In this document: one piece after another, positions 61,360 to 64,000 of the stretch | How positions within the stretch are numbered: position 1 is the first letter of the stretch | How the letters are laid out: the number at the start of each line of letters is the position of its first letter | Position numbers: made by a program | Source: Escherichia coli O127:H6 str. E2348/69 | Lineage (GTDB): Bacteria; Pseudomonadota; Gammaproteobacteria; Enterobacterales; Enterobacteriaceae | Assembly: GCF_000026545.1 (NCBI RefSeq) | Contig: NC_011601.1 | Reading direction: 5' to 3' (one strand) | Length of the DNA stretch: 64,000 bases

Positions 61360-64000
61360 TGAGTTATTTCTAAAACGAGGAAAGAAAAGATATTAACTGA
61401 ACTTAATTTATAAAATTAAGTTCAGTTGCATAGATAGATCCTGTAAAGGCAGATATTCTGCGTAATGTACGACGCTAAAATTTATAAATGATTCAAACGC
61501 TCATTTAGCGTTTCAATAATATAAGTATTTACAGAGACTTGTTGCTGCGCAGCCGCATTATTAAGGCGTTCACTCAGCGATTCTGGATAGCGTAATGTAA
61601 AGGTCTTAATCTTTTCTGTACGCGCATACGGCTCAATACCCGCAGCTTTACAATCCTCAAGATACTCTCGCAGGGAAAGCTCCCCTTCTTTTTGCAGCCC
61701 CTGAATGCTGTCAGAGACAAAATCACAATAACCTGACAAGCCCAGGAATTTGCCACGAAATGCATTCAGTTCTGGCACGTAAGTGATAACAGCAGGTTGC
61801 CCGGCAATCTCCATAGAGTTTGGCGTCTTCAGTTTGATCATGGTTTTACCCCTATACTTAGTAACCAGTCACGCACGCTTTCTACAGCGCCTTTATCGGT
61901 ATCTGGCGACGGATGAGGCCGATGGAAACACGCAACGCTCATATTTAGTATGAACTTACAACGCGAACCTCTTCCTTCCTTAATTTCTCCGCCTAATGCT
62001 TTAACCAGTGACTCTATATCAGACCACTTAATCCCTTGAGGAACAGGAGATTTAAATATTTGATCCAATGTATTTTTTTGTTTCTTCCGCAAAGCCTGTA
62101 CCTGGGTTCTCATGGCATGTCCTTATGACTTCACTTTATGACATCAATAGTATGACATCACAATATGAAGTCAAGTTTCCCTTCCTTACGCCATTGTCCC
62201 AATCGTCTTCCTGAATCGCAGCAGTGCGATGGTGAAAAACGCGCCGCCAATTGCCATCAGCGTCAGGAACTGCGGCCAGACGATTTCGAATCCGGCACCA
62301 CGGTAGAGAATGGCCTGCGCGAGGCTAACAAAGTGTGTCGTCGGCATGGTCAGCATAATGTCCTGCACCATCTGCGGCATACTTTCGCGCGGCGTGGAAC
62401 CACCGGAAAGCATTTGCAGCGGCAGCAGCACCAGAATCACCAGCAGCCCCAGTTGCGGCATTGAACGCGCTATCGTCCCCATAAAAATGCCGATTGACGT
62501 GGTGGCAAACAGACTGAGCGCCACGCCCAGCATAAACAGCGGGATCGAGCCTTCTATCGGTACGCCCAGCACGCCTTTCACCATCAGCACCAGCGATAAT
62601 CCCGATACCACCAGCACCACCAGCCCCATCGACCAGACCTTTGCCATCATGATCTCAAACGGCGTTATCGGCATCACCAGTAAGTGTTCCACCGTGCCGT
62701 GTTCACGCTCGCGGATCAGTGCCGATCCGGTCAACACAATCGCCAGCATGGTAATGTTGTTGATGATCGCCATCACCCCGCCAAACCACGCGGGATCGAG
62801 GTTCGGGTTAAAGCGCATCCGGGTTTCCAGCGATACCAACGGTTCGCTGTTATCACGGTAACGCGCGACAAAGCTGTTCACTTCACCGTTGATAATATTC
62901 TGGATATAACCGTTGCCAGTGAATGCCTGGCTCATGCGCGTGGCATCGACGTTCACCTGAATATCCGGCTGGCGTCCGGCGAGGACATCACGCTGAAAAT
63001 TAGGCGGAATATTTATCGCGAAGGTATAACGTCCGGCGTCCAGTCCGGCATCCATCTCATCGGCGGTGATCATCTCCGGTGGCAAAAACCACGGGCGATA
63101 GAAGCTGTTAACGATCCGGTTCGACAACTGCGATTGATCCATATCGGCTATGGCGATCGGCGCGAGGTTCAACGATCCTGGCGTAACGGTCGCTGACGAA
63201 TACACCGACACCGTAAACGAGAAGACAATCAGCGTCAGCATCGCTTTATCACCGAGCAGACTGCGCAACTCTTTGATACCCAGATTAAAAATATTGCGTA
63301 AATGGCGCATCATCCCTCCTGTTTTTTCAGCAGCAGGATGCTTAAGCCCATCACCAGCGGTATGGCTATCAGCAACGGGATAAAAAGTTGCCACAAATCA
63401 GTCAGATCCAGCGCTTTCGAGAACGTTCCGCGGGCGATAGTCAGAAAATGACTGGTGGGATAAACCTCGCCGATCCAACGTCCTGGACCTTCCAGCGAAG
63501 CTACCGGATCGATCATCCCGGAAAACTGTGTCGCCGGGATCAACGTGATAATTGCCGTACCGAAAATGGCGGCAATCTGGCTTTTCATAAAGGTGGAGAT
63601 CAGCAGCCCCATTCCGGTGGCGATGATGATATACAGCAGCGCCGCCAGGGTGAGAGTCAGGAAACTGCCTTTATGCGGTACGCCAAACACAAACACCGAC
63701 AGGGCGCAGAGCAGGAAAAAGTTCAGCATCCCCAGCGCGATGTATGGCAGCTGTTTGCCAAGTAAAAATTCGCTACGGGTGGTGGGGGTCACGTAAAGGT
63801 TGATAATCGACCCTAGCTCTTTTTCCCGCACCACGCTAAGGGCGCTTAGCATTGACGGGATCATCATCAGCAGAAGCGGGATCACCGCCGGAACAATCGC
63901 CGGCAGGCTTTTTACGTCCGGGTTATAGCGATAGCGCGTCTCAATATTCATCAGCCCGCTTTGGCTGGCGGGTGTGGACTGTCGGCTCGCCACATCCTGT

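What the first reader, a model, noticed from the sequence alone, without database searches (positions are those of the whole stretch)
61395..61427. Perfect 15-bp inverted repeat between nikR and the antitoxin gene
AACTGAACTTAATTT-ata-AAATTAAGTTCAGTT is a perfect palindrome in a convergent intergenic gap. It could be a bidirectional terminator, but the stem is AT-rich, so it might instead be a protein-binding site or a recombination scar from the event that placed the TA module here.
Basis: seen in the sequence. Interest (0 to 1): 0.35.

Follow-up and report, generated by a model that had tools for sequence, protein, structure and literature searches.

The report
AT-rich terminator-like hairpin after nikR
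A perfect 33-base palindrome between the nickel regulator gene nikR and a HicAB toxin-antitoxin operon in E. coli is most likely an ordinary hairpin that marks the ends of the two converging transcripts, and it is not a scar left by insertion of the toxin-antitoxin genes.

Summary
Window 61395-61427 is a perfect 15+3+15 palindrome, the longest perfect inverted repeat in the 64 kb, and far beyond chance. It lies 32 nt after the nikR stop and 54 nt after the convergent hicB stop.

The window matches E. coli E2348/69. About 1,490 of 5,426 complete E. coli genomes have this nikR-hicB junction, and nearly all keep the palindrome unchanged.

The "scar of TA insertion" idea is not supported. The yhhJ|hicAB|nikR order is conserved in Citrobacter freundii, and nikR|hicBA in Klebsiella aerogenes, both without the palindrome. 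In rare E. coli alleles the palindrome stays with the nikR flank and is followed by a DUF3829 gene instead of hicB.

It is single-copy, matches no Rfam family, and is not a NikR operator, a HicB operator or a REP element.

The best reading is a transcript-end hairpin. On the hicAB strand it is followed by a U-rich tail and passes a simple terminator scan. On the nikR strand it has no U-tract, so it could only pause polymerase or protect the 3' end. This is inferred, since no 3'-end data were available.

Its right edge coincides with an allele breakpoint, and a BIME and an IS1 have inserted into it in other strains. Ordinary; low interest.

The parts
61395..61427 (.). Perfect palindrome: 15-bp arms and a 3-nt loop (ATA). 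It encodes a hairpin in both convergent transcripts.
   Evidence: Unchanged in about 1,486 E. coli genomes.
61380..61394 (-). GAAAGAAAAGATATT on the + strand, which reads AAUAUCUUUUCUUUC on the - strand. This is the U-rich tail that follows the hairpin in the hicAB transcript.
   Evidence: The terminator scan flags only the - strand. The stretch is invariant in every haplotype seen.
61363..61394 (+). 32-nt spacer after the nikR stop. It is inherited together with the palindrome in both type A and type B alleles.
61428..61470 (.). About 43 nt found only in this allele type (type A). The breakpoint with type B lies 0-1 nt after the palindrome. G61428A, in about 9% of carriers, lengthens the stem to 16 bp.
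61471..61481 (.). The last 11 nt before the hicB stop. They are homologous to the right arm of the GC-rich hairpin that follows hicB in island-carrying alleles.
60961..61362 (+). nikR, the last gene of nikABCDER.
61482..61841 (-). hicB, a HicB-family antitoxin gene.
61838..62113 (-). hicA, a HicA-family toxin gene.
62114..62185 (-). Candidate hicAB promoter and operator: -35 TTGACT, -10 TACTAT, TATGACATCA direct repeats, and the inverted repeat TGACTTCA...TGAAGTCA. It is unrelated in sequence to the palindrome.

Best explanation
The palindrome is a transcript-end hairpin that belongs to the 3' flank of the nik operon. In this allele it also lies at the 3' end of the convergent hicAB operon. 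In the hicAB transcript (- strand) it forms a 15-bp stem followed by AAUAUCUUUUCUUUC, so it would act as a weak, AT-rich intrinsic-type terminator. In the nikR transcript (+ strand) it forms a 15-16-bp stem with no U-tract. There it could only pause polymerase, fix the point where converging polymerases collide, and protect the 3' end from exonucleases. The structure, its position and its distribution are shown here. The termination and stabilisation activity is inferred.
For: - The hairpin is stable on both strands, with z-scores of -5 to -7.
- On the - strand it passes the terminator scan: 15 pairs, tail AATATCTTTT.
- It lies 32 nt and 54 nt beyond the two stop codons of a convergent gene pair.
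- The hairpin and the adjoining tract (61380-61427) are identical in about 1,486 of 1,490 carrier genomes. Polymorphic sites lie immediately on both sides, at 61378/61379 and 61428, and the 61428 variant adds a 16th base pair.
- Unrelated hairpins sit at equivalent positions elsewhere. Island-carrying E. coli have a GC-rich hairpin with a U-tract 5 nt after hicB. Serratia prophage homologues have canonical terminators. Two Citrobacter-type gaps hold REP-like hairpins.
- In type B alleles and in the L066 contig the palindrome is followed by a T-rich tail (ATTTTAATT / GGTTTAATT) ahead of a DUF3829 gene. Where nikR is visible on the contig, DUF3829 runs in the same direction as nikR. That fits a nik-operon terminator.
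- Published work describes terminators between convergent E. coli genes that need a hairpin but do not look like intrinsic terminators. REP hairpins are reported to act as both terminator and stabiliser.
Against: - The stem is only 20% G:C, and the two residues next to it on the - strand are A, so it is far from a canonical terminator.
- The + strand has no U-tract in this allele.
- There is no covariation. The only arm substitution seen (T to C in type B) breaks a pair and is not compensated, and that variant is not flagged as a terminator.
- K. aerogenes manages with a 27-nt gap and no hairpin.
- The invariance is only weakly informative at E. coli divergence levels (about P = 0.05 when only common polymorphisms are counted).
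- No 3'-end data were available.
Confidence: 0.55

Rival explanations
1. The palindrome is a neutral relic with no function. It could be a piece of AT-rich filler DNA, made or kept perfect by hairpin-templated mutation (quasi-palindrome correction, a mechanism cited from general knowledge). It would persist only because E. coli lineages are too close for it to have decayed.
For: - It is absent from the orthologous gaps of Citrobacter and K. aerogenes.
- There is no covariation, and one uncompensated arm change is fixed in type B.
- The conservation signal is statistically weak.
- About 580 E. coli genomes keep hicAB without it.
Against: - Both the palindrome and its U/A-rich flank are invariant while the neighbouring bases vary.
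- It survives in two different genomic arrangements.
- Alleles that lack it have another hairpin next to hicB.
Confidence: 0.25
2. The palindrome is a structure-prone DNA site that attracts rearrangements, so it is a target or hotspot rather than a scar. This reading can hold alongside the terminator reading.
For: - The breakpoint between type A and type B lies 0-1 nt after the right arm.
- A BIME-like element is inserted at the left arm, flanked by AACTGAACT on both sides.
- In strain A30 an IS1 is inserted at the centre of the palindrome.
Against: - Only three events were seen. IS1 is known to favour AT-rich DNA in general (general knowledge, not tested here), and the whole nikR-yhhJ interval is variable.
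- There is no target duplication around the palindrome itself.
Confidence: 0.12
3. The palindrome is a binding site for a dimeric DNA-binding protein, acting as an operator or a roadblock.
For: It has perfect dyad symmetry with a 3-bp centre. In type B alleles it lies about 145 nt upstream of DUF3829, within a conserved 5' region.
Against: - It does not match the NikR operator, which is found perfect at 55975-56002.
- It is unlike the hicAB promoter repeats.
- It lies downstream of both operons in this allele.
- It occurs once per genome.
- No cognate regulator can be proposed.
Confidence: 0.06
4. The palindrome is a scar of the event that inserted the HicAB module.
For: The hicAB segment has a lower GC content than its flanks. 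The variable segment spans exactly from the nikR stop to the yhhJ stop.
Against: - yhhJ|hicAB|nikR is conserved in C. freundii, and nikR|hicBA in K. aerogenes, both without the palindrome.
- Homologous hicAB modules in prophages and plasmids lack it.
- The palindrome also occurs next to DUF3829, on the far side of the island from hicAB.
Confidence: 0.02

Closest known systems
Bidirectional terminators between convergent E. coli gene pairs (Ju et al. 2019, as cited in Wang et al. 2022, bioRxiv 10.1101/2022.10.23.513370)
   Same: It lies between a convergent gene pair and encodes a hairpin in both transcripts. Per, such elements need not resemble intrinsic terminators; they position head-on polymerase collisions.
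   Different: No 3'-end or collision data exist for this site. The stem is unusually AT-rich and perfectly paired. The flanks are asymmetric, with a U-rich tail on one strand only.
Canonical intrinsic (Rho-independent) terminators, such as the GC-rich hairpin with a U-tract after hicB in island-carrying E. coli and in Serratia prophage homologues
   Same: A stem-loop just downstream of a stop codon, followed on the - strand by a U-rich stretch.
   Different: Only 3 of 15 pairs are G:C. The tail starts with AA and is interrupted. There is no U-tract on the + strand.
REP/BIME extragenic palindromes acting as 3'UTR terminator-stabilisers (Harris et al. 2026, bioRxiv 10.64898/2026.03.23.713779)
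   Same: An extragenic hairpin at the 3' ends of genes. The orthologous nikR-hicB gaps in two Citrobacter-type loci are filled with REP-like sequence, which suggests the same niche.
   Different: This palindrome is single-copy, AT-rich and perfect. REPs are GC-rich, imperfect and present in hundreds of copies.

Membership tests
Canonical intrinsic terminator | A stable stem-loop directly downstream of the last stop codon of an operon. | tested here: met
   -15.3 and -16.5 kcal/mol, located 54 nt and 32 nt after the two stop codons.
Canonical intrinsic terminator | A G+C-rich stem, especially at its base. | tested here: not met
   3 G:C pairs of 15, and the two basal pairs are A:U.
Canonical intrinsic terminator | A U-tract immediately 3' of the stem. 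| tested here: inconclusive
   The - strand tail AAUAUCUUUUCUUUC passes the scan but is offset and interrupted. The + strand tail GCAUAGAUAG fails.
Canonical intrinsic terminator | Transcript 3' ends map to the U-tract. | not testable with these tools
   No 3'-end data were available for strains with this allele.
Convergent-pair bidirectional terminator | Located between convergent genes, with a hairpin encoded on both strands. | tested here: met
   definition taken.
Convergent-pair bidirectional terminator | Overlapping, sharply defined 3' ends of both transcripts, independent of Rho. | not testable with these tools
   Needs SEnd-seq or Term-seq with and without bicyclomycin.
REP/BIME element | Many dispersed copies per genome. 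| tested here: not met
   Median of one place per genome, all at this locus. Only this locus was found in the genome, metagenome and viral scans.
REP/BIME element | A GC-rich imperfect palindrome of the REP consensus type. | tested here: not met
   The sequence is 80% A+T and perfectly paired. A genuine BIME-like element next to it in type B alleles looks quite different.
NikR operator | GTATGA-N16-TCATAC dyad (consensus recalled from the literature). | tested here: not met
   The only perfect match is at 55975-56002. None overlaps the palindrome, even with 3 mismatches allowed.
HicB autoregulatory operator | Lies in the hicAB promoter and shares the promoter's repeat motif. | tested here: not met
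   It lies downstream of the operon. The promoter repeats TATGACATCA and TGACTTCA/TGAAGTCA differ from it.
Mobile-element end or insertion scar of the TA cassette | Present at the borders of the hicAB module in other genomes, with flanking duplications. | tested here: not met
   Absent in Citrobacter, K. aerogenes, prophage and plasmid copies. No direct repeat flanks the palindrome.
Known RNA family (Rfam) | A match that reaches a family's gathering score. | tested here: not met
   The best hit is 19.6 bits against a threshold of 47, E = 1.5.

The most novel reading that the evidence does not exclude
The AT-rich perfect palindrome could be a structure-prone fragile site that nucleates structural variation in the nikR-yhhJ hypervariable interval. 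Island junctions, a BIME insertion flanked by a 9-bp duplication, and an IS1 insertion all map to its 33 bp. If so, a terminator-like hairpin would double as a preferred entry point for foreign DNA and repeat elements.
Probability: 0.12. Interest if true: 0.4.

Novelty: new member of a known kind. Interest (0 to 1): 0.15.

Why it matters
On its own it matters little. It is an unannotated, lineage-specific hairpin of the kind commonly found between convergent bacterial genes. It has three modest uses:
- It corrects the picture of the locus. HicAB next to nikR is ancestral in Escherichia, Citrobacter and K. aerogenes, and is not a recent insertion.
- It offers a clean natural test of whether a long AT-rich stem with a one-sided U-tract can terminate or position convergent transcription.
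- It marks a small site where several independent rearrangements converge in a known variable region of the E. coli chromosome.

Tried and rejected
- Rfam scan of 60900-62300 at permissive thresholds: nothing near any gathering score.
- NikR operator pattern: found only at the nikA promoter.
- Comparison with the hicAB promoter repeats: no resemblance.
- REP/BIME or other dispersed repeat: rejected, because it is single-copy.
- Scans for the palindrome core: 100,044 species-representative genomes gave only E. coli plus one E. coli-like contig binned as Citrobacter. Viral contigs gave none. Metagenomes gave 34 loci, 33 of type A and one of type B.
- Plasmid and phage collections searched with the whole hicAB segment: no palindrome-bearing copy. 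The only full-length plasmid-collection hits are chromosome-sized records filed as plasmids.
- Origin of the 54 nt between the palindrome and hicB: no homologue in any fetched locus.
- Covariation test: not possible. The only variants are a loop change, one uncompensated arm change and one outer-pair change.
- Conservation test: metagenome haplotypes were selected on the palindrome core, so they cannot show invariance. The unbiased check on complete genomes shows invariance, but with too few independent polymorphisms to prove constraint.
- Literature: nothing on this hicAB-nikR locus. One search failed on syntax.
- The simple terminator scan flags neither the type B variant nor the GC-rich type C hairpin. 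Its negatives are therefore weak evidence.

Full report
**Observation.** Window 61395-61427 reads AACTGAACTTAATTT-ATA-AAATTAAGTTCAGTT. It is a perfect palindrome with 15-bp arms and a 3-nt loop. It is the longest perfect inverted repeat in the 64-kb window. None of 40 Markov-1 simulations of the window reached 15 bp, and none of 20,000 simulations of the AT-rich gap exceeded 13 bp. So it is not a chance feature. As RNA it folds at -16.5 kcal/mol on the + strand and -15.3 on the - strand, with z-scores of -5.3 and -6.7. As DNA it folds at -12.8 kcal/mol. Only 3 of its 15 pairs are G:C.

**Context.**
- nikR (+, 60961-61362; NikR_C and RHH domains) ends 32 nt before the palindrome.
- A HicB-family antitoxin gene (-, 61482-61841) ends 54 nt after it.
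- Beyond that lie hicA (-, 61838-62113), a promoter region with its own repeats (62114-62185), and the stop codon of yhhJ at 62186.
- The window is 100% identical to E. coli E2348/69 over this stretch.
- RefSeq annotates nothing in the gap, and no Rfam family matches.

**Distribution within E. coli.** Every genome but one has nikR, but homology to the window stops at the nikR stop codon in about 73% of genomes. The whole interval from the nikR stop to the yhhJ stop is a variable segment:
- K-12 carries rhsB-yhhH-ISEc1 there.
- Other strains carry a GntR/PTS sugar island.
- 2,073 of 5,426 genomes carry hicAB next to yhhJ.
- About 1,490 of those have the arrangement seen here, called type A below: nikR, 32 nt, palindrome, 54 nt, hicB.
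- The remaining roughly 580, including O157:H7, have the island between nikR and hicB. They have no palindrome, but a GC-rich hairpin with a U-tract lies 5 nt after the hicB stop.

**The hicAB position is ancestral.**
- In Citrobacter freundii the order rbbA-yhhJ-hicA-hicB followed by convergent nikR-nikE is the same as here. HicB is 84% identical, but the 93-nt gap is filled with GC-rich REP-like sequence.
- A second contig, whose HicB is about 83% identical and whose gap looks Citrobacter-like, has a 113-nt REP-filled gap.
- In Klebsiella aerogenes nikR and hicB converge on a 27-nt gap with no hairpin.
- Related hicAB pairs sit in P2-like prophages of C. koseri and Serratia. In the Serratia copies hicB is followed by an ordinary GC-rich terminator.
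- So the module was beside nikR before E. coli diverged, and the palindrome is a later filler of the spacer, seen only in E. coli. This removes the premise of the "scar of TA insertion" reading.

**The palindrome goes with nikR, not with hicAB.**
- Three complete genomes and several assembly and metagenome contigs carry a different arrangement, type B. Its order is nikR, the same 32 nt, a BIME-like element interrupting the left arm, and a palindrome variant. After the variant come ATTTTAATT and a DUF3829 gene running in the same direction as nikR. Next come a decayed 24-nt remnant of the nikR 3' end and the GntR/PTS island, then hicBA and yhhJ.
- The type B palindrome variant has loop AGA and one T-to-C change in the right arm.
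- A contig with a DUF3829 allele only 63% identical still carries the palindrome, with a 14-bp perfect stem, in front of the gene.
- Types A and B diverge 0-1 nt after the right arm of the palindrome.

**Conservation.** The metagenome loci were selected on the palindrome core, so their invariance is circular. An unbiased check used a 53-nt query covering 61380-61432:
- It found 1,358 genomes identical to the window and 130 with one mismatch.
- In both genomes I inspected from that group, the mismatch is G61428A, just outside the palindrome, and it adds a 16th base pair.
- Polymorphic sites flank the invariant 48 nt closely, at 61372, 61378/61379, 61428 and 61455-61472.
- Counting only common polymorphisms, the absence of variation in the core has a probability of about 0.05. 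That is suggestive, not conclusive.
- No compensatory change was seen, and the type B arm change is uncompensated.

**Mechanism.**
- On the - strand the stem is followed by AAUAUCUUUUCUUUC, and this is the only orientation the terminator scan accepts.
- On the + strand the tail GCAUAGAUAG is not U-rich.
- In type B the + strand tail is AUUUUAAUU, though the mismatched stem is not flagged by the scan.
- Published single-molecule and transcriptomic work describes many terminators between convergent E. coli genes. They do not resemble intrinsic terminators and do not depend on Rho. Their hairpin is needed so that converging polymerases collide at a defined place.
- REP hairpins are reported to act as both attenuators and 3' stabilisers.
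- On this basis I read the palindrome as a transcript-end hairpin. It would be a weak intrinsic-type terminator for hicAB, and a pausing, collision or 3'-protecting hairpin for the nik operon. The anatomy is shown here. The activity is inferred, with confidence of about 0.55.

**Rivals.**
- *Neutral relic (0.25).* This fits the palindrome's absence in sister genera and the lack of covariation.
- *Protein-binding site (0.06).* No support was found. The NikR operator occurs, perfect, only at 55975-56002. The hicAB promoter repeats are unrelated. The palindrome is single-copy.
- *Recombination target (0.12, not exclusive of the main reading).* Three independent events touch these 33 bp. They are the type A/B breakpoint, the BIME insertion flanked by AACTGAACT on both sides, and an IS1 at the centre of the palindrome in strain A30 with loss of hicBA and yhhJ. 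Three events in an AT-rich spot of an already variable region are not enough to establish this.
- *Scar of TA insertion (0.02).* Contradicted by the conserved synteny described above.

**Verdict.** It is an ordinary, unannotated member of a known kind of element, and interest is low. It cannot be settled here whether type A or the DUF3829 arrangement came first, nor where the 43 nt specific to type A came from.

Noticed in passing
window 55975-56002: A perfect NikR operator dyad, GTATGA-N16-TCATAC, upstream of nikA. It was the only zero-mismatch match in the window.
   Followed up: partly
window 62114-62185: Candidate hicAB promoter and operator: -35 TTGACT and -10 TACTAT on the - strand, overlapped by TATGACATCA direct repeats and the inverted repeat TGACTTCA...TGAAGTCA. 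The K. aerogenes homologue keeps the TGACTTCA/TGAAGTCA motif.
   Followed up: partly
L001 4065-4221; also L064, L068, and the start of L065 and L066: A roughly 155-nt BIME-like element (two REPs around an AT-rich spacer) is inserted at the left arm of the palindrome. It is flanked by AACTGAACT on both sides, which looks like a 9-bp target duplication.
   Followed up: partly
L001 4398-5378; L066 207-1190; L067 33-1007; L068 2953-3951: The DUF3829 gene downstream of the palindrome occurs in several highly divergent alleles (61-63% amino-acid identity to the L001 copy). Where the upstream sequence is on the contig (L066, L068), the 5' region including the palindrome is nearly identical to L001. 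In one contig it is followed by a large DUF4011/AAA_11 helicase-like gene instead of the GntR/PTS island.
   Followed up: partly
L001 about 5480-5510; L068 4053-4076: A decayed 24-nt copy of the nikR 3' end (CACGGGCATTTGCAGTGCCTGCCG) lies after DUF3829. It shows that type B is a recombinational mosaic laid over an island-type allele.
   Followed up: no
L057 2529-2545 (E. coli strain A30): An IS1 is inserted at the centre of the palindrome, directly after AACTGAACTTAATT. The region from hicBA and yhhJ as far as yhiN is missing.
   Followed up: partly
window 61363-62185: The interval from the nikR stop to the yhhJ stop is a multi-allelic variable segment in E. coli. Alleles include hicAB alone, the GntR/PTS island with hicAB, DUF3829 with the island and hicAB, and rhsB-yhhH-ISEc1. 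hicAB is present in 2,073 of 5,426 genomes. The segment has a lower GC content (35-47%) than its flanks (over 50%).
   Followed up: partly
window 61060-61072 and 61452-61464: An exact 13-nt direct repeat, GATATTCTGCGTA, occurs inside nikR and again in the nikR-hicB gap. It is unexplained and may be chance.
   Followed up: no
window 61471-61481 compared with L006 2995-3005 and L013 9051-9061: The last 11 nt before the hicB stop (GCCGCTAAAAT in most type A genomes) are homologous to the right arm of the GC-rich hairpin of island-carrying alleles (GCCGCTATAAG). One type A haplotype (L036) carries the island-type version.
   Followed up: partly
L017-L020: hicAB homologues (80-82% HicB identity) sit as accessory genes between the replication gene (GPA) and the portal gene of P2-like prophages in C. 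koseri and Serratia.
   Followed up: no
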